A stretch of DNA of 64,000 nt from a virus. Its lineage: Duplodnaviria; Heunggongvirae; Uroviricota; Caudoviricetes. Of the stretch, positions 7,883 to 29,221 are shown piece after piece. Position 1 is the first letter of the stretch; every line of letters starts with the position of its first letter. Below the pieces are notes generated by a model. The model had not been told where the DNA came from and made no database searches. It worked only from the letters and a program-made list of their open reading frames with translations. The translations under genes and the position numbers were made by a program. The DNA is taken from the IMG/VR virus record IMGVR_UViG_3300048865_000005; one strand, given 5' to 3'.

Positions 7883-8200
7883 TTACACTCCAACTCGAAG
7901 TTCCATTTTAAACGGCTTACTTGTGCTAACTGGATCAACTGTTGAGTCTACTCGGAACCCTAAACGAAGCATCATTTCCATTAATACATCTACGGAAAAG
8001 AGGTCATAATGTCCTTTAACTAGCGTGTTCAGCCTTGGAGCGCTAACACCTAGAACTTTCGCTGCTTCGTTTTGCTTCCACCCACGCTGCTTAATAGCGT
8101 TAGTAATTGCAGACGCTAGCCGCTCTTTTAGAGTGTGCATCTGGTACTTAACAGGATCGGTAGTTACAAGTTCCAAGATTTTCGATACTTCTGTACTCAT
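7883..8200 (-). CDS. XRE-family helix-turn-helix protein (HigA/antidote-like)
   Basis: Motif QNEAAKVLGVSAPRLNTLVKGH....SVDVLMEMMLRLG is typical of XRE HTH antitoxin-like regulators. Confidence 0.55.
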   Translation of the reverse strand: MSTEVSKILELVTTDPVKYQMHTLKERLASAITNAIKQRGWKQNEAAKVLGVSAPRLNTLVKGHYDLFSVDVLMEMMLRLGFRVDSTVDPVSTSKPFKMELRVGV

Positions 8201-8841: not shown

Positions 8842-9066
8842 TTAGTTCAAGCGAGCGATAGACTTTTTCGCTTCTTCTAAAGTGCTCTTGATACGCTGCT
8901 TACCATCGCTGACACGATGTACACGGTATCCGCCTTCAGGACGCTTTGTGATAGTGCCTAAATAGTTACCGGAGGCATCGTACATACGGCGAACCCGCTT
9001 TGCAGCTTCTTCGTTTGCATCACTAAACCGACCAACTACTACCTTAGCCATAATTAACTTCCCCAC
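8842..9066 (-). CDS. small DNA-binding protein with integrase-arm/AP2-like domain
   Basis: Pattern GGYRVHRVSDGKQRIKSTLEEAKKS resembles integrase N-terminal arm-type / AP2-like DNA-binding domains. No catalytic domain present. Confidence 0.4.
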   Translation of the reverse strand: MGKLIMAKVVVGRFSDANEEAAKRVRRMYDASGNYLGTITKRPEGGYRVHRVSDGKQRIKSTLEEAKKSIARLN

Positions 9067-9219
9067 TTCTTAGTTATGAGAAGAAGTATTAAAACTCCTT
9101 CTTTCTTCCTGTACTGTTACGACGTAATTTTGAACAAAAAGTTCGAAACTATCTATCGGGCACAATAAAGGAATCTTCGTTTGTCAGTTAGCGGTGAAGT
9201 GCTAACTGGAATGTCGGCT

Positions 9220-9247
9220 ATCATAACAGCGGGCACAGCTATGTCAA
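9220..9247 (-). promoter_or_regulatory. sigma70-type promoter (TTGACA-N16-TATGAT)
   Basis: Minus strand reads TTGACAtagctgtgcccgctgtTATGAT. Would give a ~150-nt structured leader for the 8842-9066 gene. Confidence 0.45.
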
Positions 9248-9419
9248 TACCCTAAGTGAAAATATTTTCAGGGCATGCCGCAGGTTCGTAAGTGCTTGAT
9301 TGCAAACGAAGATTTGAGGAAAGAGCGCTAAGGCGTGTTTGACTAAAACGAAAAAATCGTTTATCGTTTTTGAACTGAACGAGGCTCCTCCGCAAAAGAA
9401 GCCCCTTCAGGTGACGAGC

Positions 9420-9722
9420 TTACAAAATATTAAAAAGCTCTAACTGCATGTCATCTGCAACCGCTGTAATCGTTTTTCCGTGCTTCTTGATTACACGCTT
9501 AGCCATTTTCGCATTCAGCATTGTCGTAGAATGCTGGATGTGAAGTGCTTTCGCTATGAGCCGTATCGTGCTTTCAGATACCGGCAAAATATCTACAATA
9601 TTCGTATCCACTTTGTAAAATCCATCTACACGCCCTATTACGGGTGTTCCATCTGATGTAAAGATAATCCTTACATTGTACTCTTTATCGTGTAATTCAT
9701 TTTCACGAGTCGGCATTTCCAA
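9420..9722 (-). CDS. hypothetical protein (100 aa), first gene left of the ori-like noncoding region
   Basis: ORF with ATG. Possible regulator, no motif confirmed. Confidence 0.5.
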   Translation of the reverse strand: MEMPTRENELHDKEYNVRIIFTSDGTPVIGRVDGFYKVDTNIVDILPVSESTIRLIAKALHIQHSTTMLNAKMAKRVIKKHGKTITAVADDMQLELFNIL

Positions 9723-10059
9723 AATACTCCTAGCCGTGTAAGGCTTTACGTGCTCGAACCTCTCCCCTTGTGAGAGACCTCCGGTCCTTCGAGCTATGCG
9801 GTTTTATGCCGCATCTGGTGACTATCAGCCGTCACTAGCTACTACTGAGCCTTATGTGACGTTCTGCGGCAGTATATTACCGTTCTGCGTCACTAAGATG
9901 GCATTTTACTACTATCCATTTGGTTTGCAAGCTACTTAACAAAATATTTTGATAATTTTTAGGAACTTTTTCTATTTGTATGATATTTGGGCGCGTGCTA
10001 ATCAGTATCACATCGCTATCATACCAATGCGCTGTACGTCTGTACAGTGCTTTTCCTCT

Positions 10060-10270
10060 AGTCTACCTCTCTACTTCTTTGCTTATTGAAGCAAGTGCTT
10101 CAATGCTTCAATGCTTGCTTGCTTAATGAACCAATGAATTGTGTGCTTGCGTTAGCACTTCAATACTTCAGTGCTTGCTGAAGTGCTTACTTAGGTATTT
10201 ACTTGCTTAAGTACGTACTTGCTCAACTGCTTGCTTCTGCGCATAAGGAAGTACTTACTATATCGGCCTC
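10060..10270. repeat. iteron array upstream of parA (TTGAAGCA / TGCTTCAA half-sites)
   Basis: More than 10 direct and inverted copies of GCTTCAAT/TTGAAGCA-like 8-mers. Includes the near-perfect inverted repeat ATTGAAGCAAGTGCTTCAAT at 10085-10104. Confidence 0.7.
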
Positions 10271-10297
10271 TCATTGATTAGCTTTAAGGATGGAATT

Positions 10298-10927
10298 ATG
10301 GAAGTTATCGCTATGGCTTCGCGGAAGGGTGGAGTAGGCAAGACGAACACGACCGAGAATTTAGGAGTGGAACTCTCTCGCCGGGGCTATAAAGTGATGC
10401 TACTAGATACTGACGATCAAGGGAGCCTTACGCAGTGGTGGAATGATCGTAAAGAGGAAGAACCCTCATTGATGCAGGTTGAGTTCCAAGAGCTTCCAAG
10501 GGCTTTACAATTGCTCGAAAGTAACGGCTTTGATTACGTGTTAATCGACACTCCCCCAATGGCTAACGAGGTAATACGCTTCGTTACTCGCTATGCGGAC
10601 CTAGTAGTAATTCCCTGTAAAGCTGGTTCCTCTGACCTAAAGGCAATAACCCAGACTATCTCTATCGTCAAAGAAGCCAAGAAGCCTTATGTTTTCCTGC
10701 TGAACGAAGTCATGCCCAACGCTAAAATCACAAAAGACGTAATGATAGCCCTGTCTCAACATGGCAAGCTCTGTCCGATCATCCCGGCACGGACTGTATA
10801 TAAGGAAGCAGGCTTCAGCGGTCTAACACCTATAGATATGCGCGTAAGCTCCCCTGCTTCATTGGAATTCAGACGTTTAGCGGATTACATCCTTAGCGAA
10901 ATTTCAACACTACAAGCAAGTGCTTGA
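10298..10927 (+). CDS. parA: ParA/Soj-family partition ATPase (type Ib-like, no N-terminal HTH)
   Basis: Deviant Walker A box ASRKGGVGKT. About 210 aa. ATG at 10298 with AAGGA RBS (the ORF track's TTG at 10274 is less likely). Flanked by iteron arrays. Confidence 0.8.
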   Translation: MEVIAMASRKGGVGKTNTTENLGVELSRRGYKVMLLDTDDQGSLTQWWNDRKEEEPSLMQVEFQELPRALQLLESNGFDYVLIDTPPMANEVIRFVTRYADLVVIPCKAGSSDLKAITQTISIVKEAKKPYVFLLNEVMPNAKITKDVMIALSQHGKLCPIIPARTVYKEAGFSGLTPIDMRVSSPASLEFRRLADYILSEISTLQASA

Positions 10928-11040
10928 GTGCTTATTGAAGCATTGATATATTGAAGCATTGATTGAAGCAAGCAGTGAAGCATTTGCTGAAGTACGTAAC
11001 CATGTATTGAAGTACATGCTTCTTTGCTTAAGTAAAGAAG
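10925..11040. repeat. iteron array downstream of parA (direct repeats ATTGAAGCA)
   Basis: ttattgaagcattgatatattgaagcattgattgaagcaagcagtgaagcatttgctgaagta... with at least 6 half-sites. Confidence 0.7.
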
Positions 11041-11050
11041 GAATGAATGA

Positions 11051-11332
11051 ATGACCAAGAAAGCTTACCAGTTGGAAGACTTAACTAAGTCCCTAAATGC
11101 TCAGCCTGTAGTGACTACAGCGGCTCAGTTGGCAGTAGTTGAGCCAACACCAGCAACACAGTCCACACCATCAGCGGATCAAATTTTTGCAGGTGCCCAT
11201 AAGACGCTCAGTGTGCGTACCGATCCAGCACGCTATAAGAAGCTTCGCCGGGCTTGCTTGGACTATGACAAGACAGGGCAAGATATTTTTATTGAAGCCC
11301 TAGACGACTGGTTCAAAAAACATAACCTATAA
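11051..11332 (+). CDS. small centromere-binding protein candidate (ParG-like ribbon-helix-helix)
   Basis: 93 aa: Ala/Thr/Pro-rich N-terminus, then C-terminal KTLSVRTDPARYKKLRRACLD...GQDIFIEALDDWFKK, consistent with a beta-strand plus two helices (RHH). Sits immediately downstream of parA. Confidence 0.5.
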   Translation: MTKKAYQLEDLTKSLNAQPVVTTAAQLAVVEPTPATQSTPSADQIFAGAHKTLSVRTDPARYKKLRRACLDYDKTGQDIFIEALDDWFKKHNL

Positions 11333-11337
11333 GACTA

Positions 11338-11365
11338 AGCCCCTTCACAGGGGCTTCATTGTTTC
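11338..11365 (+). terminator. rho-independent terminator (AGCCCCT-TCAC-AGGGGCT then T-rich)
   Basis: 7-bp GC stem after the par operon. Possibly bidirectional, since the convergent 11369-12031 gene ends here. Confidence 0.5.
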
Positions 11366-11368
11366 TGT

Positions 11369-12031
11369 TCACCGTATAACATCAAGTATCACGATATTGT
11401 TGTAGCCGTTCGCTACTGCTGCCTTGATTGCTGCCTCTACTGCTTCGGTCTCGTTGCGTGTCTCTTCTGTATGTTCAAACTGTACGTTAAACCCGCTTCC
11501 ATCCTTCGGACGGCATGAGAGCTTTACACGGATTTTGTGCGGCTTAGCTCCACGACGAGGCTTGTTCTCAACAGGTATAAGCTGAAAGTCATCATTGCTT
11601 GAATCATTCACTGCTTGAGCGGGTACTTCAGTAGTTACTTCAGCAAATGCTTCGGTAGGCACTTCCTTTGGCAATTCATTCAGTGCTTCCTTCTGTACTT
11701 CTTGAGGCGTTGAAGTGCTTGCTTCTTTGCTTATTGAAGCACTTGCTTCAATACTTGCCTGCTTACTTGCTTTCGTCGGCTTTTTAGTCGTCGGCTTCTT
11801 TTCTGCCGCTTTCTTTTCTACTGGCTTATCTGCTGCTTTGGTTGTAGCAGGCTTCTTTGCCGGGGTTTTCTTCGGAGTAGGGGAGGTCTTTTCCTCCTTC
11901 TTCGCAGGCGTACCAAACGCTTCAGCAAAAGCGCGCTCAGCCTCTTCTTTCTGTGCTCTTCTTATCATCTCAGCCTCATGCGCGGATTGTTCTTTTTTAG
12001 AAATACGAGAGTGGTTTTGACGGTACTGCAT
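11369..12031 (-). CDS. K/P/A/T-rich basic protein (histone H1/AlgP-like low complexity) with structured C-terminal domain
   Basis: Repeats of the KKPxxxK type (TPKKTPAKKPATTKAADKPVEKKAAEKKPTTKKPTK). An iteron palindrome lies in its coding sequence at 11733-11752, encoding ASIEASAS. Confidence 0.6.
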   Translation of the reverse strand: MQYRQNHSRISKKEQSAHEAEMIRRAQKEEAERAFAEAFGTPAKKEEKTSPTPKKTPAKKPATTKAADKPVEKKAAEKKPTTKKPTKASKQASIEASASISKEASTSTPQEVQKEALNELPKEVPTEAFAEVTTEVPAQAVNDSSNDDFQLIPVENKPRRGAKPHKIRVKLSCRPKDGSGFNVQFEHTEETRNETEAVEAAIKAAVANGYNNIVILDVIR

Positions 12032-12213
12032 GTCCGCTCCTTATCACAGAGATATTTTTAACTATAGCTATTCACTAGAGATGTGCCAGTTAGAGAGGCT
12101 GGCACACACATTAAGAGTGTTCTCACTCTAGATAATCGTCATAGATTTTTAAATTGAGCATACCGTTAAGATTGGCAGAAATTACACAACTTCCATGTTC
12201 GTTTGTATAAAGA

Positions 12214-12576
12214 TCATTCTTCAAGCTCGGTGTATTCGCGCGGCGGCGGCGGTGTATCACCGTTGTAGCCGTCCACTTCATCATCATGCGGCAGAACGTA
12301 CAGCTTTTTGAATTTGATCAAGTCGGTGATCGTCGCATAGCTGCCAACCGACATACCGTGAACCACCTGACCGCATTCATTCACATAGGTGGCATGCGCC
12401 TGCCAAGCCCGAACATCGAACATCGCACGGCGGGAGCGCCAAGCGCCTTTCACCGGATAGACGCTCTCAGGCGACCAAGTGAGCGCTTGCCCGTTACGCT
12501 CAGGGAACGCCGCTTGAAGCATCGCGCACAGCTTTCTGACCTTGTAGCCTGCCGGTTTACGCTTTTCCATTTTCAT
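12214..12576 (-). CDS. hypothetical protein encoded by a GC-rich island (moron-like)
   Basis: ORF of about 120 aa with GGGAG RBS. Local GC is clearly higher (about 55-60% by eye) than the flanks (about 38-42%). No domain recognised. Confidence 0.55.
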   Translation of the reverse strand: MKMEKRKPAGYKVRKLCAMLQAAFPERNGQALTWSPESVYPVKGAWRSRRAMFDVRAWQAHATYVNECGQVVHGMSVGSYATITDLIKFKKLYVLPHDDEVDGYNGDTPPPPREYTELEE

Positions 12577-12591
12577 CTCCCGTTGACGGCT

Positions 12592-12951
12592 CTACAGGCC
12601 GTCTATCTCATTGACTTTAGAAAGAACATCTACAGCCTGCTCCTCAGCCTTAACAAGTAAGGCGACAGCCTTGGCTATATCTACGTTCGTATTTGCAGCG
12701 GAACGTTTAGCTTCTTGGGCCTGAACGAACGACTGCAATGCAGATACTAAAACTTCACGCTCTTGCTTCCATTCTTCCAGTACATCACGTCTCATGTCTT
12801 CTTGACGTTGTATTTCTTTCTGCAACTCTATGTTGTCTTTTCGAAGCTCTTCTATCGTTTGGCCGCGTTGAGTTTTGTGGTAGTTAGCTTGATCTTTCAG
12901 AGCCTTCTCATTACTCAGGTCGTGCTCAAGCTGAGCAATACGCTCTTTCAA
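12592..12951 (-). CDS. coiled-coil protein
   Basis: 119-aa highly charged E/K/Q-rich heptad-like sequence. The in-frame region upstream of the TTG start encodes IEASIEASASIS from the iteron palindrome, so the true start is uncertain. Confidence 0.5.
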   Translation of the reverse strand: MKERIAQLEHDLSNEKALKDQANYHKTQRGQTIEELRKDNIELQKEIQRQEDMRRDVLEEWKQEREVLVSALQSFVQAQEAKRSAANTNVDIAKAVALLVKAEEQAVDVLSKVNEIDGL

Positions 12952-13039
12952 ATCACTTATTGAAGTACTTCCTTCATTGCTTATTGAAGCGCTTGCTTCA
13001 ATGCTTGCTTCAATAACGGGTTTTCAGATTTTGCCATTT

Positions 13040-13345
13040 TTAAAAATTCTCTATCTTTGCGAGCCGCCAAAGCTCTGATGTGAACCATTCTACAAGGGAA
13101 TTCTGTTCAATAATAGTGTCAATATTATAAATATCTGTAATTTTCTCTATCGTATTACAAGGGCTTATAATTTCTATCAATGTACATCGCCATTCCATCT
13201 CCTCTGTACCTGCATAGTCCCAATCACTCGCCCATGTGGTAGGGGAGGGAGGTATGCGAATTATTGAACAAATTTCTAAGGAAAATGTTGCAGGCACGTC
13301 AATATATCGATCCGTTGAGATCGTTGCTTTTATGTCATAAAACAC
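13040..13345 (-). CDS. hypothetical protein
   Basis: 101-aa ORF. Confidence 0.45.
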   Translation of the reverse strand: MFYDIKATISTDRYIDVPATFSLEICSIIRIPPSPTTWASDWDYAGTEEMEWRCTLIEIISPCNTIEKITDIYNIDTIIEQNSLVEWFTSELWRLAKIENF

Positions 13346-13367
13346 TGCCGACTTTTAACCTTTCACC

Positions 13368-13550
13368 TTACGCTTCCATCCATTCCACTGCCTCATCTAC
13401 ACCAGCGAATAGCTTAGAATTTTTACTGTCCTTTGAAACTCGTTTTTCACCTTTCTGACCAACTTCTTTTACAATAAAAGCTTTTGGAGTTTCCCGTAAT
13501 ATCTGAACTGCAATAAGCCAGCCGGATTTAGTTGCTAATATCCTTCTCAA
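13368..13550 (-). CDS. hypothetical protein
   Basis: 60-aa ORF. Confidence 0.4.
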   Translation of the reverse strand: MRRILATKSGWLIAVQILRETPKAFIVKEVGQKGEKRVSKDSKNSKLFAGVDEAVEWMEA

Positions 13551-13656
13551 CCATTAATACTTTTCCTTATACTTACCTGAACGTTTTGCTTCTTTCTTTC
13601 TATCTACAAATGTAGCAGGCTTATTGAAGCTATTAAAGAACTTAGCAACTGTGTTT

Positions 13657-14031
13657 TTAACCTTTGTATTCATGCCCGACAATACCTCCGTGACCTACAA
13701 TTACCGCTTCAATGATGCCTTTAGGGACATACGGGTATACTGTTTGTGTAGGCTTATCAGACTCTTCTGCATAAGGTAGAAGCTCTTCGATACACTCAGA
13801 AGGAAAGCCAATCTCGAACGATTCATACTCCGCATATGGTAGCGTCTCCCTTGGCATACAATAGTGATATTGGGAAGCCTGAATAGATAACGAAATACCA
13901 TCTCCTAATACTATTCGCTCTGTATGGCGTAGCCTGTAAGCTGAAGAAATGTCTGGTAATGTAGCCGGGAATGGACCATTCGACTCAACACCTTCTTCTA
14001 ACCACTCAGCCAAACTTTTTTCTCTGTTCAT
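13657..14031 (-). CDS. hypothetical protein (124 aa)
   Basis: ORF with GGAG RBS. Promoter-like motif at about 14046-14090 upstream. Confidence 0.5.
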   Translation of the reverse strand: MNREKSLAEWLEEGVESNGPFPATLPDISSAYRLRHTERIVLGDGISLSIQASQYHYCMPRETLPYAEYESFEIGFPSECIEELLPYAEESDKPTQTVYPYVPKGIIEAVIVGHGGIVGHEYKG

Positions 14032-14096: not shown

Positions 14097-14309
14097 TTAT
14101 TCTTCTTCATCTTTAGCTAATAACTCAATTTCTTCAGCTTCCTCTAACTCTCGCTCTAATTGTTCCCACCGCTCTTGTTGAGCCTTCTTGAACTCTTCTT
14201 TCTCTGCTTCTGACATAGCATCCCATTCTTCTTGTTGTTGGGCTAACCGCTCTTCGCGTGCTTTCATAGCACGTTCGTATTCTCTTTTCTTAAATTCTTC
14301 GAGATTCAT
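14097..14309 (-). CDS. highly acidic coiled-coil protein
   Basis: 70 aa dominated by E/K/Q (EEWDAMSEAEKEEFKKAQQERWEQLERELEEAEE). Confidence 0.45.
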   Translation of the reverse strand: MNLEEFKKREYERAMKAREERLAQQQEEWDAMSEAEKEEFKKAQQERWEQLERELEEAEEIELLAKDEEE

Positions 14310-14983
14310 ATATAACTATTTATCCTATCTACACTTAATTCCTGAATCATCAGATGCTCAAATAATCTAAAATAATCTCTTTCTATAGTAATCATTTGTA
14401 GATTATCTGAAACATCCCCTCGTCCACCAAATACATTAAAGCCTCCTCTTGCTTGAGGAATGTCGTAGATAATATGGAAGTCGTCTATCTTAGACGCCCA
14501 ATACACGCTCTTATTTCCTACGAATACTAAATATTTTTTATTATCAAAGAAATAAACATCACACTCTTGCATTGCTCCAACTACTAGACGAATTGCCTCG
14601 TAAGGCCACTGATAACAGAACGTATCATATACTCTAGGTTTTCTCGGTGCCCTAGGTTTTTTCAACTTTTGAACTATCTCTTTATTTTCAATAATTTTTA
14701 TATTATCGATCATTACTGAGATAGTATGCAGAACGTCTTCATGAAACCACTCTGAATACCCATCTTCTTTTTCTAAAATCTCATATTTCCTAGGAAGAAA
14801 TGCTTTATGTAGTTTCTTCTCTAAAGCTAAAGCGGAAGATTCGTCTTCGCACTCTTTATAAAAGCTCTCTTGGAAGTTGAAGCAATTTCCTAACTGATTC
14901 CAGCGATTTTCAAGATTTACAGCTTTCCCAATTTTAACTCTAGGTTCAGTTAAATGTTTCATGAAATAAACAAATGCAGTCAT
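14306..14983 (-). CDS. T5orf172 / GIY-YIG-like domain protein
   Basis: N-terminus FVYFMKHLTEPRVKIGKAVNLENRWNQL matches the T5orf172 (GIY-YIG superfamily) signature. 225 aa. Confidence 0.55.
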   Translation of the reverse strand: MTAFVYFMKHLTEPRVKIGKAVNLENRWNQLGNCFNFQESFYKECEDESSALALEKKLHKAFLPRKYEILEKEDGYSEWFHEDVLHTISVMIDNIKIIENKEIVQKLKKPRAPRKPRVYDTFCYQWPYEAIRLVVGAMQECDVYFFDNKKYLVFVGNKSVYWASKIDDFHIIYDIPQARGGFNVFGGRGDVSDNLQMITIERDYFRLFEHLMIQELSVDRINSYI

Positions 14984-16255: not shown

Positions 16256-16396
16256 ACCGGGCCTCCATATCAGGGTGTTTTTTCTCTAGAACCCACGTGG
16301 CACTAAGGCTAGAGGGCTATTTTCATCGACATTTTCTGTCAATTCGAAGCGAATCCTACAGGAAAAAATAAATTCCTCAAGAATTTCTAAAAATTT

Positions 16397-16456
16397 AAGT
16401 TTTTTGAAAATTTCTAAAAAATCTTGTTGACGCTCTCGTTAGGCGATGGCAGTATG
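16397..16456 (+). promoter_or_regulatory. divergent control region: degenerate copy of the TTTTTTGAAA motif plus a weak sigma70-like promoter (TTGACG-N17-CAGTAT)
   Basis: AAGTTTTTTGAAAATTTC at 16397-16414. TTGACG at 16427-16432. Start of the rightward gene block. Confidence 0.3.
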
Positions 16457-17653: not shown

Positions 17654-17679
17654 AAATCCTAACTTTTTTGAAACATTTG
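17654..17679 (+). promoter_or_regulatory. conserved middle-block motif copy 1 (CCTAAC-TTTTTTGAAACATTT)
   Basis: One of 6-7 near-identical ~26-nt motifs preceding plus-strand genes. Confidence 0.5.
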
Positions 17680-17689
17680 AGTATAGGAT

Positions 17690-17929
17690 TTGAAGAAGAA
17701 GATTATTCATGTAAACCAACACAAAATTAGATCAAACGCAAAAGACGGAAAGACAGAACCAGTACTTACCGTCAAAACCTATAACAGCAATCAATATGCA
17801 CACGAAGTTGACATTATTGAAGCTGGTAAGGTTGTAGCAACAGTTAAGTATTCCCCTGATAAGCCTCTACCATGTGGAGCTAGAGTTTGGATTGAAACTC
17901 AGGCGGATGTGCTATTGCGTTTAATTTAA
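17690..17929 (+). CDS. hypothetical protein
   Basis: 79-aa ORF with TTG start and weak SD spacing, 10 nt after the motif. Confidence 0.45.
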   Translation: MKKKIIHVNQHKIRSNAKDGKTEPVLTVKTYNSNQYAHEVDIIEAGKVVATVKYSPDKPLPCGARVWIETQADVLLRLI

Positions 17930-17952
17930 TCTCAACTTTTTTGAAACATTTA
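17927..17952 (+). promoter_or_regulatory. conserved middle-block motif copy 2 (CTCAAC-TTTTTTGAAACATTT)
   Basis: Followed by AGGAG and GTG at 17962. Confidence 0.5.
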
Positions 17953-17961
17953 GGAGCTATT

Positions 17962-18276
17962 GTGCAAATTAGTTATGGTCTGCTGTCGGCTAGATTTTTT
18001 GTAAATAATGTTGGAAATCTTGTCCCTATAACTTTAAGCGAAAAGATTATTTATACCTACATGAAGGAACGTTGGATTACGTTCAACAGGAACGGTGACG
18101 AGTTCCTTGATACTGTAAACGAAATTGCAGAAGCTCTTAATGTGGACAGAAAGACCGTCATGTCAACAATCAAGAAGCTTACAGAGAACGGGGTGGTAGA
18201 AGGCTATAAGGGAAGATTAGGAAGTAGCAATAAGTGGATTTGGAATAATTTTAACGAGTTTACCCTGAGAGGCTAA
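17962..18276 (+). CDS. hypothetical protein, possible winged-helix DNA-binding
   Basis: GTG start with AGGAG RBS (the ORF track's TTG at 17941 lies inside the motif). KTVMSTIKKLTENGVVEGYK resembles a wHTH recognition helix. Confidence 0.45.
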   Translation: MQISYGLLSARFFVNNVGNLVPITLSEKIIYTYMKERWITFNRNGDEFLDTVNEIAEALNVDRKTVMSTIKKLTENGVVEGYKGRLGSSNKWIWNNFNEFTLRG

Positions 18277-27044: not shown

Positions 27045-28033
27045 GTCTAAAAGCAATTGTAGATACCGATTTTATAAAATATGCAGTAGCTTGTGCAGGC
27101 GAAAAAAGATCGATCCAAGTAATCCATAAGCAAAGCGGTAGAGAAAAAGAGTTCAAAACCCGTACAGAGTTTTACGGAAGAGATAAAAAGAAGTCAGGTG
27201 GTTGGTTAGGCGAGCTTAATAAGAATCGAACCTCCCCGTTTATGTTAGACGAATTCGAAATCGTCGATGTACAAACTCCCGAACCTCTAAACAACGTTCT
27301 CCACTCTGCAAAGTTAATGTTTCAGCGAACATTAGAGAAAGTCGGTACAACTAAATATAAAGGCTATATTGGAAAGGGTGATAGCTTCCGGGTAAACCTT
27401 TCCACCATCATTAAATACAAAGGCAATCGTGAAGAGACACTTCGTGCAGTATACATGCAGGAAGTTGAAGACTATCTAATTAAGAAATTTAATTTAGAAA
27501 CAGTAAGAGATTACGAAGCTGACGATGTATGTGTAATGGATTGCTATAAGAATCCTGATAATGTACTTGTCGGAGTAGATAAAGATTACGCTGGGCAACC
27601 GGTAAGGTGGTTTAATCCTAATAATCCTGATGTTGGTATTCAAGATTGCGATTGCTTCGGCAAGTTGTTCTTAAGTGCTAAAGGTCATGTTAAGGGAATT
27701 GGAAGAGCTTTCCTCTACCATCAGATAGGTAGCGGAGACTCTAGCGATAATTATAAAGCCAACTCTGCCAGTGAGCGTGCATGGGGAGATAAGAGTTCAT
27801 TCGATATTCTTAGCCAAGCCACAAACGATAAGGAAGCTCTAGAGGGGTTGGTTCGAATCTACAAGGAAGAACTCTACCCTGAACCCGTAATGATTAAGGG
27901 TTGGCGTGGTGACGAGTTCGAAGTCGATTGGCTGTACGTTCTCGAAGAAAACTTTCAAATGGCACGCATGAAGCGATTTGAAGGCGATGATGTGTACATT
28001 AAAGAAGTTCTGCAAAGGTTCGGTCTCTTATGA
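27041..28033 (+). CDS. 5'-3' exonuclease / flap endonuclease (FEN, RNase H-like)
   Basis: N-terminal AIVDTDFIKYAVA (compare LLVDGSSLAFRA). YEADDV (GYEADDVIA motif). VLVGVDKDYAG (TxDKD motif). Confidence 0.65.
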   Translation: MSLKAIVDTDFIKYAVACAGEKRSIQVIHKQSGREKEFKTRTEFYGRDKKKSGGWLGELNKNRTSPFMLDEFEIVDVQTPEPLNNVLHSAKLMFQRTLEKVGTTKYKGYIGKGDSFRVNLSTIIKYKGNREETLRAVYMQEVEDYLIKKFNLETVRDYEADDVCVMDCYKNPDNVLVGVDKDYAGQPVRWFNPNNPDVGIQDCDCFGKLFLSAKGHVKGIGRAFLYHQIGSGDSSDNYKANSASERAWGDKSSFDILSQATNDKEALEGLVRIYKEELYPEPVMIKGWRGDEFEVDWLYVLEENFQMARMKRFEGDDVYIKEVLQRFGLL

Positions 28034-28611
28034 TTCCGAGCCAAGCAGATATTGAGAAACGGCAAGCCAATCTCGCTAAGTTTCTGAAGCAAATCGATCC
28101 AGTCACAGGCAAAGCCCCTGAAAAGACAATGGTACAGGTTGTACGCAGTGCCATACGTCAAGCATGGATGAAGAGTCCGACAAAGTTAGCGTATCTGTAT
28201 CAACACACAGAGGCAGATATGGATAACAACACACGTACTAAATGGAAAGTACGGTGTGAGATTTGCGGTGAACATTTCAAAGTAAATGAAGTTGAGATTG
28301 ACCACATCAGAGGCAATCACTCATTCACGCGTGTTGAAGATTTTGAAGATTATTTTAACAACATTTTGATGGTTGGTTTTGATGATCTTCAGGTTCTATG
28401 TAAAGACGGTTGCCATGCAATCAAAACATTATCTGAACGTCTTGGTATTACTTTCGAAGAGGCAAAAGTGGAGAAGGAAGTAATCGAAATATGTAAGACG
28501 AAGAAAGATAAAGACTTCATTAAAAAGAATGGCCTAATTCCTGAATCGAATGCAGATAAGAGGAGGGCACAAGTAAGGAGAATACTTAGTGACAGTACGG
28601 AGAAAAAGTAA
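28030..28611 (+). CDS. HNH endonuclease (homing-endonuclease-like)
   Basis: CEICGEHF...EIDHIRGNH...DGCHAIK matches the HNH CxxC/DH/N/CxxCH arrangement. Confidence 0.6.
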   Translation: MIPSQADIEKRQANLAKFLKQIDPVTGKAPEKTMVQVVRSAIRQAWMKSPTKLAYLYQHTEADMDNNTRTKWKVRCEICGEHFKVNEVEIDHIRGNHSFTRVEDFEDYFNNILMVGFDDLQVLCKDGCHAIKTLSERLGITFEEAKVEKEVIEICKTKKDKDFIKKNGLIPESNADKRRAQVRRILSDSTEKK

Positions 28612-29221
28612 ATTAATTTTTGGCGTTGGAATTAATGATGCTGATTATGTAGTTGCAACGAATGTACAAATTGATGGAAAGCATAAGAGATTACGGATTT
28701 GTCCTTTCTACGCTAGATGGAAGAAAATGCTTGAGCGGTGCTACTCAGGAAGTTGGCACACACTCAAACCAACGTACAAAGATTGTTACGTTTGTGAAGA
28801 GTGGAAAACTTTCTCAAACTTTAAATCTTGGATGGAGAAGCAAGATTGGGAAGGTAAGCAGTTAGATAAAGACATACTCTTCCGTAACAATAAAGAATAT
28901 TCGCCGCTGACGTGTGTTTTTGTTGACTCTCATGTAAATAGCTTCCTGATTGAAAGAGACAGTAAGCGTGGTGAATACATGATTGGCGTCCACTGGCATA
29001 AGCGAGACAAAAGGTTTACTTCCGCTTGTGGTGATGGTCTAGGTAAGACAACTTATCTAGGTAATTTCAATACAGAACTTGAAGCTCATCTTGCTTGGCT
29101 TTCATATAAATTAGAACGAGCTAAAGAATTAGCAGCAAAACAAACTGATTCACGAGTCGCAAAAGCACTTATTGATCGTTACCAAAATTATCATGTATTT
29201 CAAGAAGCAGAGGCAGCATGA
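28589..29221 (+). CDS. HNH-family / AP2-domain endonuclease-like protein
   Basis: N-terminal RICPFYARWKKMLERCYS...DCYVCEEWKTFSNFKSWM (HNH_3-like). C-terminal YIGVHWHKRDKRFTSACGDGLGKTTYLGNFNTELEAHLAW (AP2-like). Confidence 0.55.
   Translation: MTVRRKSKLIFGVGINDADYVVATNVQIDGKHKRLRICPFYARWKKMLERCYSGSWHTLKPTYKDCYVCEEWKTFSNFKSWMEKQDWEGKQLDKDILFRNNKEYSPLTCVFVDSHVNSFLIERDSKRGEYMIGVHWHKRDKRFTSACGDGLGKTTYLGNFNTELEAHLAWLSYKLERAKELAAKQTDSRVAKALIDRYQNYHVFQEAEAA

What the first reader, a model, noticed from the sequence alone, without database searches (positions are those of the whole stretch)
10060..11365. Plasmid-type partition cassette (ParA plus small RHH-like protein) flanked by iteron arrays inside a phage early region
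The ParA gene has a deviant Walker A box (KGGVGKT). Directly downstream is a 93-aa protein whose C-terminus looks like a ribbon-helix-helix centromere binder of the ParG/type-Ib class. Both flanks (10060-10270 and 10925-11040) carry dense arrays of the 8-9-mer TTGAAGCA / TGCTTCAA, including a 9-bp inverted repeat with a 2-nt spacer. That is the architecture of a plasmid segregation locus (ATPase, CBP, centromere repeats). It sits in a genome that otherwise looks like a lytic contractile-tail phage with no integrase. This suggests either a plasmid-prophage or carrier-state lifestyle, or active intracellular positioning of phage DNA.
Basis: partly seen in the sequence, partly recalled or inferred. 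Interest (0 to 1): 0.78.

Follow-up and report, generated by a model that had tools for sequence, protein, structure and literature searches.

The report
Plasmid partition cassette in a phage
An ~88-kb contractile-tailed phage that otherwise looks strictly lytic carries a complete plasmid-style DNA segregation kit (motor ATPase, small DNA-binding adaptor and four arrays of its likely binding sites), so it may be able to persist in dividing cells as a plasmid-like episome.

Summary
Window 10298-10927 encodes a 209-aa small ParA with a deviant Walker A motif (best family: ParA partition ATPase, E 9e-42). Window 11051-11332 encodes a 93-aa protein with a disordered tail and a C-terminal strand-helix-helix domain. 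Its family profile matches the ribbon-helix-helix (RHH) domain of TP228 ParG (hhalign 95%).

The repeats are best read as TRCTT/AAGYA tetramer boxes in strict 4-nt register, often as the 8-nt unit RCTTCAAT. That is the layout of the TP228 parH/OF centromere. There are four arrays, not two: 10049-10260, 10914-11033, 11597-11772 (inside a coding ORF) and 12955-13010. Together they hold 67 boxes in 141 slots, against a 2.6% background. Nothing else in the 64 kb comes close.

The nearest ParA homologues (56-57%) sit on Pseudomonas-type plasmids, with the same gene pair, the same AAGC box and the same array positions. The next nearest (50%) is on an Acinetobacter phage that also exists as a 75-kb plasmid.

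The host genome is a Pseudomonas-myovirus-like phage. No integrase was found in 79 of its 88 kb, and its known relatives lack ParA.

Verdict: a genuine type Ib partition locus, a new member of a known kind in an unusual genome. Its biological role (episomal persistence) is inferred, not shown.

The parts
10049..10260 (.). Array A: 20 RCTT and 5 AAGY tetramer boxes in one 4-nt register, filling 25 of 53 slots. It lies directly upstream of parA and is the presumed operator plus centromere. It contains the 9-bp inverted repeat ATTGAAGCA-AG-TGCTTCAAT at 10085-10104.
10298..10927 (+). parA: a 209-aa small Walker-type partition ATPase with a KGGVGKT deviant Walker A motif and no N-terminal DNA-binding domain.
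   Evidence: NCBIfam NF041546 at E 8.6e-42 over residues 3-196. PHROG 164 at E 2e-41. PDB ParF 4dzz at E 5e-10. Invariant motif columns in the homologue alignment.
10914..11033 (.). Array B: 10 AAGY and 4 RCTT boxes in the parA-to-CBP spacer, mostly in the opposite orientation to array A. Its first boxes overlap the last parA codons. It contains a promoter-like site, TTGAGT-17-TATATT with an extended TG, at 10924-10952.
11051..11332 (+). ParG-like centromere-binding protein (CBP), 93 aa. Residues 1-44 are predicted disordered and carry a conserved Lys-containing N-terminal motif. Residues about 50-90 form strand-helix-helix, the RHH topology.
11337..11356 (+). Terminator-like hairpin AAGCCCCTTCACAGGGGCTT that closes the cassette. 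It lies between the CBP stop codon and the stop codon of the convergent ORF220.
11597..11772 (.). Array C: 17 RCTT and 2 AAGY boxes in register, embedded in the low-complexity linker of the minus-strand ORF220 (11369-12031). Positions 11722-11772 are an 86%-identical direct repeat of 10074-10124 in array A, so arrays A and C bracket the cassette.
   Evidence: (D7, I6)
12955..13010 (.). Array D: 7 RCTT and 2 AAGY boxes in register. It lies in the intergenic DNA immediately upstream of the leftward ORF 12592-12951 and is a possible operator for that leftward operon.

Best explanation
This is a functional type Ib (ParF/ParG-like) DNA partition locus carried by a phage.

Proposed mechanism:
1. Dimers of the 93-aa RHH protein bind the TRCTT tetramer boxes, by analogy one dimer per box at about 8-bp spacing. 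They coat arrays A to D and form a large partition complex spread over about 3 kb.
2. Binding at array A, and at array B with its internal promoter-like site, autoregulates parA and the CBP gene. Array D may repress the neighbouring leftward operon.
3. The disordered, Lys-bearing N-terminal tail of the CBP contacts ATP-bound ParA dimers spread on the host nucleoid and stimulates their ATPase. The phage genome is thereby moved and spaced along the nucleoid.
4. The payoff is stable inheritance of the phage genome whenever it persists as an episome. That could be a plasmid-prophage state or a carrier/pseudolysogenic state.

The cassette shares ancestry with Pseudomonas-type plasmid cassettes and has since adapted to the phage genome.

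Shown: the identity of the three components, the non-randomness and register of the boxes, and the conservation of layout and box core in plasmid relatives.

Inferred: binding of the protein to the boxes, ATPase stimulation, autoregulation and the episomal lifestyle.
For: **ParA.**
- It matches the ParA partition family over its full length.
- All Walker A, A' and B columns are invariant in the homologue alignment.

**CBP.**
- The only PDB hit of the family profile is ParG.
- hhalign gives 95.4% probability and E 1.7e-8 against the ParG RHH domain.
- Of 37 family members, 11 hit Pfam Antitox_RHH and 5 hit Pfam ParG.
- AlphaFold gives pLDDT 85-89 for an extended segment followed by two helices, after a disordered tail.

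**Boxes.**
- There are 67 in-register boxes in 141 slots, against a 2.55% background. T precedes the box in 57 of 67 cases.
- Only four places in the 64 kb carry such arrays, all within 3 kb of the genes.
- The geometry matches the TP228 parH/OF centromere. That site has tetramer boxes with 4-bp spacers in either orientation, takes one ParG dimer per box, and serves as both operator and centromere (PMC3130281).

**Relatives.**
- Plasmid cassettes have ParA 56-57% identical and a CBP with a near-identical beta-strand (TLSV[RK]).
- They use the same AAGC/AAGT core in 8-bp tandem units upstream of parA and in the parA-CBP spacer.
- An IMG/VR contig, L020, has the same layout with a different motif.
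- The nearest phage homologue, vB_IME_Ab2712, also exists as a 75-kb A. baumannii plasmid, pRBH2-3.

**State of the genes.**
- parA and the CBP gene score positive only in their own frame under the phage's codon usage.
- Their GC content (0.47) has moved from the plasmid value (0.54-0.56) towards the phage value (0.41).
Against: - No lysogeny module is visible. No integrase, recombinase or clear CI-type repressor was found in 79 of the 88 kb surveyed.
- The genome carries DNA polymerase, primase-helicase, ribonucleotide reductase, thymidylate synthase and about 30 kb of tiny early ORFs. Its nearest relatives are Pseudomonas myoviruses, a group I know from the literature (not from any tool result) as virulent; searches show the relatedness only.
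- No plasmid-type Rep gene was identified.
- ParA scores below NCBIfam's curated cut-off (143 versus 180 bits). The CBP itself scores below every Pfam cut-off.
- Fold searches with the monomer model were uninformative.
- No sequence variation exists among the metagenomic copies, and no close phage relative covers this region. Conservation within the phage lineage therefore could not be tested.
Confidence: 0.6

Rival explanations
1. The cassette has a role in the lytic cycle only. The RHH protein is mainly a transcriptional repressor of a small early-gene neighbourhood, acting at arrays A, B and D as operators. ParA tethers or positions replicating phage DNA on the nucleoid during a productive infection. 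No heritable episomal state exists.
For: - The genome's gene content is of the virulent type, and no integrase or repressor module was found.
- The cassette lies inside the early region.
- Arrays A, B and D sit at positions where promoters or operators are expected.
- TP228 OF is itself an operator.
Against: - Hundreds of related Pseudomonas myoviruses manage without ParA. At most 3 Pseudomonas records appear among the 363 phage records with a ParA hit. By contrast, 495 Pseudomonas records carry the primase homologue and 232 carry the tail sheath homologue.
- Every close relative of the cassette sits on a plasmid or a phage-plasmid.
- Array C, inside a coding region, makes little sense as an operator.
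Confidence: 0.15
2. The cassette is a weapon of incompatibility or competition. The phage copy of a plasmid partition system, with its very large box arrays, titrates or mis-pairs the partition proteins of resident plasmids or rival phage-plasmids that use the same AAGC boxes. This destabilises them or excludes them.
For: - The same box core is used by related Pseudomonas-type plasmid cassettes.
- The phage arrays are expanded relative to the plasmid ones: 67 boxes, and a spacer array about 70 nt longer.
Against: - The cassette is a complete, intact ATPase-plus-CBP operon with its own regulation, which titration alone would not need.
- There is no evidence that the host carries such plasmids.
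- Centromere-based incompatibility is a known side effect of partition systems (my own knowledge, not checked here). I know of no documented case where it is a phage strategy.
Confidence: 0.08
3. The cassette is an inert passenger. It was recently captured from a plasmid by recombination, has no function for the phage and is on its way to being lost.
For: - It is transcribed against the flanking early genes.
- It is bracketed by 86%-identical 51-nt direct repeats that could delete it (D7).
- Its GC content is slightly above that of the flanks.
- It is absent from known relatives.
Against: - Both ORFs are intact, with all catalytic motifs present.
- Codon usage and GC content have moved towards the phage values, and the nearest homologue is only 57% identical. 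The capture is therefore not recent.
- The arrays are expanded and spread to four sites, including a site inside a phage gene.
- The sequence is identical in several independent samples.
Confidence: 0.07
4. The repeat arrays are replication-origin iterons bound by an initiator protein, and the ParA pair merely lies next to an origin.
For: They are dense direct and inverted repeats in an ORF-poor region next to divergent transcription.
Against: - The periodicity is 4/8 nt. It is not the roughly 17-22-bp unit typical of Rep-bound iterons (iteron length is from my own knowledge).
- No Rep gene is adjacent. The only initiator-like ORF lies 7 kb away, at 17941-18276.
- In the plasmid relatives the same boxes lie beside parA and about 3-4 kb from the Rep_3/replication-initiator gene, not next to it.
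Confidence: 0.03

Closest known systems
TP228 parFGH (ParF ATPase, ParG RHH protein, parH/OF centromere-operator) of E. coli
   Same: - Small ParA (209 aa here; the solved ParF chain is 206 aa).
- A roughly 80-100-aa CBP with a flexible N-terminal tail and a C-terminal RHH domain.
- A centromere built from degenerate tetramer boxes at 8-bp centre-to-centre spacing, in both orientations, upstream of the operon, doubling as an operator.

   Different: - The box sequence is TRCTT rather than ACTC.
- Boxes are often directly adjacent (4-bp spacing) as well as 8 bp apart.
- There are 67 boxes in four arrays over 3 kb, against 20 boxes in one place.
- A 123-nt array-bearing spacer separates the two genes.
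- Sequence identity is low: ParF E 5e-10, and the ParG match is seen only at profile level.
- The carrier is a phage, not a resistance plasmid.
ParA-CBP cassettes of the Pseudomonas oryzihabitans plasmid NZ_CP044072 and of small Rep_3 plasmid contigs (L008-L010)
   Same: - Closest homologues: ParA 56-57% identical, CBP about 42-48% identical, with a conserved beta-strand TLSV[RK].
- Same gene order.
- Same AAGC/AAGT box core.
- Arrays both upstream of parA and in the parA-CBP spacer. The first spacer boxes overlap the last parA codons.

   Different: - The plasmid arrays are neat 8-bp tandem units (AAGCACCC x7, AAGCACCT x5, ACTTACGC x7) lying 0.5-0.9 kb upstream.
- The phage arrays are degenerate, longer and placed at four sites, one of them inside a gene.
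- GC content is 0.54-0.58 in the plasmids and 0.45-0.47 in the phage cassette.
Acinetobacter phage vB_IME_Ab2712 (OK149216), also found as A. baumannii plasmid pRBH2-3 (NZ_CP110465), a phage-plasmid
   Same: - The only phage record with homologues of both proteins: ParA 49.8% identical, and the CBP C-terminal domain 45% identical.
- It shows that this ParA/CBP lineage accompanies a phage genome that is maintained as a plasmid.

   Different: - There is no spacer between the two genes, and no RCTT box arrays near them.
- The CBP beta-strand differs (QVSVK).
- The phage backbone is unrelated and is followed by an HTH protein gene.
pB171 par2 (parC1-parA-parB-parC2), a type Ib system
   Same: Centromere arrays lie on both sides of the partition genes (construct descriptions in PMC4270457). 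That its ParB is an RHH protein is my own knowledge.
   Different: - It has two arrays, not four, and none inside a coding gene.
- Its repeat unit is different.
- It sits on a plasmid.
Classical plasmid-prophages with partition systems (P1 parABS, N15 sopAB with dispersed centromeres, cluster A mycobacteriophage parABS)
   Same: - A phage genome carries an ATPase, a CBP and centromeres for inheritance as an episome.
- In N15 the centromere sites are scattered through the phage genome (my own knowledge; Ravin and Lane 1999 and Grigoriev and Lobocka 2001 are listed in the references of PMC5016525).
- Mycobacteriophage ParA homologues are the largest group of phage hits: 163 records.
   Different: - By my own knowledge these elements use type Ia or chromosomal-type systems with HTH ParB proteins, not an RHH CBP, and they are recognised temperate phages with repressors. 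Neither point was tested here.
- The present genome has the gene content of a virulent phage and no recognisable immunity module.

Membership tests
Type Ib plasmid partition system (ParF/ParG-like) | Small Walker-type ParA of about 200-230 aa, without an N-terminal HTH domain, carrying the deviant Walker A motif KGGxxK[ST] | tested here: met
   The protein is 209 aa with KGGVGKT at residues 10-16. It aligns end to end with the 203-position NF041546 model. The Walker A, A' and B columns are invariant in the alignment.
Type Ib plasmid partition system (ParF/ParG-like) | Centromere-binding protein with an RHH DNA-binding fold and a flexible N-terminal tail | tested here: met
Type Ib plasmid partition system (ParF/ParG-like) | Centromere of short direct and inverted repeats next to (upstream of) the operon | tested here: met
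   Four arrays hold 67 in-register tetramer boxes. The counts per 96 nt are 13, 10, 13 and 9, against a shuffle maximum of 7. Array A is directly upstream of parA.
Type Ib plasmid partition system (ParF/ParG-like) | The CBP binds the repeats, stimulates the ParA ATPase and stabilises a replicon | not testable with these tools
   This needs EMSA or footprinting, ATPase assays and plasmid-stability assays. The only indirect support is that the box core and the CBP beta-strand are conserved together between the phage and plasmid cassettes.
NCBIfam NF041546 ParA_partition (equivalog) | Whole-protein score at or above the curated cut-off of 180 bits | tested here: not met
   The score is 143 bits at E 8.6e-42. 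This is the best-matching family and the match is full-length, but it falls below the equivalog threshold. ParA is therefore filed as a related subfamily, not as an equivalog.
Pfam PF09274 ParG | Match to the ParG model at the gathering threshold | tested here: not met
   The window protein hits only Antitox_RHH, at E 0.0077 and 16.8 bits against a cut-off of 27.2. Five of 37 family members hit PF09274, the best at E 3e-4. The relationship to ParG is remote homology seen at profile level.
MinD/FleN cell-division or flagellar ATPases | Best full-length match is to MinD/FleN models | tested here: not met
   MinD models match at E about 1e-12 to 1e-13, with the best-scoring stretch on residues 2-39, the P-loop. 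PDB MinD hits are likewise limited to the P-loop.
Phage-plasmid (temperate phage maintained as a plasmid) | A full set of phage genes together with plasmid maintenance genes (partition and/or replication) | tested here: inconclusive
   Phage genes are present: terminase, portal, capsid, sheath, baseplate and lysozyme. A partition locus is present. No plasmid-type Rep gene, repressor or integrase was recognised. The first 9.3 kb of the 88-kb contig were not examined.
Phage-plasmid (temperate phage maintained as a plasmid) | Observed extrachromosomal maintenance in a host lineage | not testable with these tools
   The phage is known only from metagenome assemblies. A scan of genome contigs found no copy in an isolate genome.
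Anti-phage defence system component (PADLOC) | Match to a defence-system protein model | tested here: not met
   The only hit is a P-loop-restricted match of ParA, at E 1.4e-4 on residues 4-39. The CBP and the neighbouring ORFs gave no hit.

The most novel reading that the evidence does not exclude
A truly virulent-type myovirus uses a plasmid partition machine, with a 3-kb multi-array centromere, to be inherited as a segregating episome in dividing cells. It replicates with its own machinery and has no integrase or classical immunity module. This would be a genetically encoded carrier or pseudolysogenic state. Alternatively, the machine spaces the phage's replication and packaging centres along the nucleoid during lytic growth.
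Probability: 0.25. Interest if true: 0.75.

Novelty: new member of a known kind. Interest (0 to 1): 0.45.

Why it matters
Phage-borne partition systems are well known from plasmid-prophages, and small ParA genes are common in viral contigs (at least 337 hits in IMG/VR). The cassette as such is therefore not a new kind of system.

Three things are worth noting.

- **The carrier.** The genome is an ~88-kb phage resembling Pseudomonas myoviruses, with its own DNA polymerase, primase-helicase and ribonucleotide reductase. No integrase was found in 79 of its 88 kb, and its database relatives lack ParA. A recent survey of 373 'persistent virulent' E. coli phages found no ParA in any of them (bioRxiv 10.1101/2024.12.31.630880). 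If this phage proves to be non-temperate, it would offer a concrete, testable genetic basis for persistence.
- **The centromere.** It is a clean natural example of a ParG-type tetramer-box centromere. It is much larger than parH, and one array is written into the disordered linker of a protein-coding gene.
- **The plasmid relatives.** Their cassettes keep the same box core as the phage cassette, which gives a ready-made pair for specificity and incompatibility experiments.

Tried and rejected
**Searches for relatives that led nowhere**
- Megablast of 9000-13000 against the phage collection found no match.
- The word-index homologue search for the 93-aa protein found only the protein itself. 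Homologues appeared only with exhaustive HMMER and with a seeded alignment.
- The search for related loci with ParA alone in viral contigs found nothing. In genome contigs it found only a P-loop fragment in a Phycisphaerales MAG.
- I looked for phage relatives that cover the cassette region. The best relative, L015 (primase 66% identical), ends before that region. The metagenome scan gave only a truncated contig. Conservation within the phage lineage therefore remains untested.
- All six metagenomic contigs (L002-L007) are 100% identical wherever they overlap 9001-14000, four of them across the whole stretch, so they carry no covariation or selection signal.

**Fold and family searches that were uninformative**
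- Rfam (gathering and permissive thresholds) and tRNA scans found nothing.
- PADLOC gave no link to defence systems.
- ORF220 has no homologue in the phage collection, the plasmid collection, the PDB, PHROGs, Pfam or NCBIfam.

**Readings considered and rejected**
- Rep-type iterons or an origin: the periodicity is wrong and no Rep gene is adjacent.
- MinD: only the P-loop matches.
- Array C as an artefact of a spurious ORF: codon-usage scoring supports the ORF220 reading frame across the array.

**Not found**
- No sigma-70-like promoter of at least 9/12 matches was found for parA between 10050 and 10297.
Full report
**1. What is in the sequence**

The region holds two plus-strand genes, set against a run of minus-strand early genes.

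- **parA.** It starts at ATG 10298, with an AAGGA ribosome-binding site at 10286-10290, and ends at 10927. It encodes 209 aa. Homologues align from its first residue.
- **The 93-aa ORF.** After a 123-nt spacer, it runs 11051-11332.
- **End of the cassette.** A terminator-like hairpin follows at 11337-11356. A convergent 220-aa ORF occupies 11369-12031 on the minus strand.

The octamer TTGAAGCA occurs 15 times in the window against 4.0 +/- 1.9 expected. Eight of those copies lie between 10086 and 11751.

**2. The repeats are tetramer boxes in strict register, in four arrays**

Written in 4-nt slots, the DNA upstream of parA reads '...GCTT attg AAGC AAGT GCTT caat GCTT caat GCTT GCTT GCTT...' for about 200 bp. 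I scored RCTT or AAGY tetramers that fall in a single 4-nt register within 96-nt windows.

- Four places in the 64 kb reach 13, 10, 13 and 9 boxes. The maximum over 100 Markov-1 shuffles of the whole window is 7.
- The next best place anywhere in the window scores 6.

The four arrays are:

| Array | Coordinates | Boxes | Location |
|---|---|---|---|
| A | 10049-10260 | 25 | upstream of parA |
| B | 10914-11033 | 14 | the spacer; opposite orientation; starts in the last parA codons |
| C | 11597-11772 | 19 | inside ORF220 |
| D | 12955-13010 | 9 | intergenic, just upstream of a leftward ORF |

Together 67 of 141 slots are boxes, against a background frequency of 2.55% per position. The base before the box is T in 57 of 67 cases. 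The commonest neighbouring tetramer is CAAT/ATTG, which gives the unit RCTTCAAT. A 3-nt codon rhythm cannot produce a 4-nt register. Even so, codon-usage scoring supports only the ORF220 frame across array C. That array is therefore written into a low-complexity linker of a real gene.

Arrays A and C share an 86%-identical 51-nt direct repeat that brackets the cassette (D7).

**3. The proteins**

*ParA.*
- Its best family is NCBIfam ParA_partition, at E 8.6e-42 over residues 3-196 of a 203-position model. The score of 143 bits is below the curated 180.
- PHROG 164 'ParA-like partition protein' matches at E 2e-41.
- MinD, Soj and NifH models match only the P-loop.
- TP228 ParF (4dzz) aligns over residues 1-125 at E 5e-10.
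- The signature Lys, Walker A, A' and B columns are invariant among homologues.

*The 93-aa protein.*
- Standard searches treat it as an orphan. Exhaustive HMMER found about 35 small homologues.
- They share three features: an N-terminal M-x-K...L...K motif, a variable Pro/Ala-rich linker, and a conserved C-terminal block K-x-L-[ST]-V-K-x-D-x-x-R-Y-x-x-L-...-Q-D-I-F-x-E-A-L-D-x-W.
- The family profile hits only ParG of TP228 in the PDB, at E 0.04 over the whole RHH domain.
- hhalign against that domain gives 95.4% probability and E 1.7e-8.
- Of 37 members, 11 hit Pfam Antitox_RHH (best 6e-20) and 5 hit Pfam ParG.
- AlphaFold predicts residues 1-44 as disordered. An extended segment follows, then helices 59-72 and 76-90, at pLDDT 85-89. 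This is the RHH topology as seen in a monomer.
- Fold searches were not significant.

**4. Comparison with related loci**

*Plasmid relatives.*
- The closest ParA proteins, 56-57% identical, are on a 132-kb Pseudomonas oryzihabitans plasmid and on small contigs that carry a Rep_3 gene.
- Each is followed by a 98-aa homologue of the 93-aa protein. The putative DNA-reading strand is nearly the same: TLSVK versus TLSVR.
- These plasmids carry AAGC/AAGT boxes at exact 8-bp periodicity (AAGCACCC x7, AAGCACCT x5, ACTTACGC x7) upstream of parA. A short box cluster begins in the last parA codons and fills the parA-CBP spacer.
- The phage and plasmid cassettes thus share gene order, array positions and box core. 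This is the best available indirect evidence that the boxes are the protein's binding sites.

*Viral contigs.*
- A more distant IMG/VR contig, L020 (ParA 43% identical), has the same layout with a different motif.
- About 14 of 80 sampled viral contigs with small ParA genes have a member of this RHH family immediately downstream.

*The nearest phage.*
- The nearest phage record, Acinetobacter phage vB_IME_Ab2712 (ParA 49.8% identical), matches a 75-kb plasmid of A. baumannii RBH2 in this region, with the same neighbouring genes. It is therefore a phage-plasmid.

**5. Comparison with the known system**

In TP228, parH plus OF comprise 20 degenerate ACTC tetramer boxes separated by 4-bp AT-rich spacers, in direct and inverted orientation. 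Each box is bound by one ParG dimer. OF is both an operator and a centromere, and the flexible ParG tail is needed to recruit ParF (PMC3130281).

The locus here has the same logic with a different box, many more boxes and a split layout. Flanking centromeres are known from pB171 par2, which is laid out parC1-parA-parB-parC2 (PMC4270457).

**6. The genome around it**

- The window is part of an 88.3-kb metagenomic contig that was recovered identically from several samples.
- It encodes a primase-helicase, DNA polymerase I, exonucleases, ribonucleotide reductase, thymidylate synthase, RNA ligase and HNH endonucleases. It also encodes a full set of myovirus structural genes and a lysozyme.
- About 30 kb consists of tiny early ORFs of unknown function.
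- The nearest database relatives are 88-99-kb Pseudomonas myoviruses, at 42-49% protein identity.
- No integrase, recombinase, transposase or plasmid Rep family appeared in the 79 kb surveyed. The only regulator-like proteins are a 105-aa XRE-type HTH protein (7883-8200) and a 111-aa winged-helix initiator-like protein (17941-18276).
- ParA is essentially absent from the Pseudomonas relatives. At most 3 Pseudomonas records appear among the 363 phage records with a ParA hit. By contrast, 495 carry the primase homologue and 232 the sheath homologue.
- The cassette is slightly more GC-rich than the phage (0.45-0.47 versus 0.41). It is well below the plasmid homologues (0.54-0.56), and it fits the phage's codon usage. 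It is an old, adapted acquisition rather than a fresh insert.

**7. Interpretation**

The identity of the locus as a type Ib partition cassette is well supported; I put it at about 0.85. The mechanism is inferred by homology: RHH dimers coat the boxes, the tail activates nucleoid-bound ParA, and arrays A and B autoregulate.

The biological role is the open point. Episomal inheritance, whether as a plasmid-prophage or as a carrier state, is the most economical reading. Every close relative of the cassette serves a plasmid or a phage-plasmid. Against it, the genome shows no lysogeny module. A purely lytic-cycle role (regulation and positioning), an incompatibility weapon and a non-functional passenger remain possible, in decreasing order of likelihood.

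**8. Verdict**

The finding is real and correctly interpreted. It is a new member of a known kind (a phage-borne type Ib partition system) in an unusual genomic setting. Interest is moderate (0.45). It would rise considerably if the phage proved non-temperate and the cassette mediated persistence.

Noticed in passing
window 9725-10060: A 336-nt ORF-poor stretch lies just upstream of array A. Its plus strand folds unusually well (-97.9 kcal/mol, z = -4.05, 0 of 100 shuffles fold as well). The minus strand gives z = -2.84. The stretch ends in a hairpin at 10029-10050 followed by TTTTCC. There is no Rfam match. It could be a non-coding RNA or an insulating terminator in front of the par promoter region.
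   Followed up: partly
window 11369-12031 (minus strand): ORF220 is an orphan with no hit in the phage collection, the plasmid collection, the PDB, PHROGs, Pfam or NCBIfam. Its N-terminal half is rich in Lys, Ala and Pro, resembling histone H1. Its last 75 or so residues, after the low-complexity linker, are non-repetitive. Array C is encoded within its low-complexity linker, and the reading frame is supported by codon usage. Whether ORF220 takes part in the partition complex is unknown.
   Followed up: partly
window 12200-12800: This is a GC-rich island (0.53-0.56, against a window mean of 0.41) covering ORF 12214-12576. That ORF has no family match and looks like separately acquired DNA lying between arrays C and D.
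   Followed up: no
window 16363-16416, 17655-17678, 17928-17951: A motif resembling AACTTTTTTGAAACATTT recurs in the leader and intergenic regions of the rightward replication module. It may be a phage-specific promoter or operator.
   Followed up: no
L006 and L007 (= window 10227-11524 and 10227-11460): Two independent metagenome assemblies yielded contigs of about 1.2-1.3 kb that start inside array A and end at 11460-11524, 70-140 nt short of array C. The assembly graphs seem to break at or near the arrays. That would fit repeat-induced ambiguity, or real rearrangement between the 51-nt direct repeats at 10074 and 11722.
   Followed up: no
L020 4990-5180 and 5800-6060 (IMG/VR UViG_3300028786_000012, 46.8 kb): A viral contig with a ParA 43% identical to the window's, plus an RHH gene of the same family. 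It has TAGGGA/TCCC inverted-repeat arrays both upstream of parA and in a 268-nt parA-RHH spacer. The split-array layout thus recurs with a lineage-specific motif.
   Followed up: partly
L008 1-56 and 318-372; L013 3330-3380 and 3460-3510: The plasmid relatives carry perfect 8-bp tandem arrays (ACTTACGC x7, AAGCACCC x7, AAGCACCT x5) 0.5-0.9 kb upstream of parA. These are likely their main centromeres and are good substrates for cross-specificity tests with the phage protein.
   Followed up: partly
window 14306-14983 and 28030-29221: A T5orf172/GIY-YIG-type endonuclease gene and two adjacent HNH endonuclease genes sit within the early and replication regions. They are typical mobile homing-endonuclease cargo of virulent phages.
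   Followed up: no
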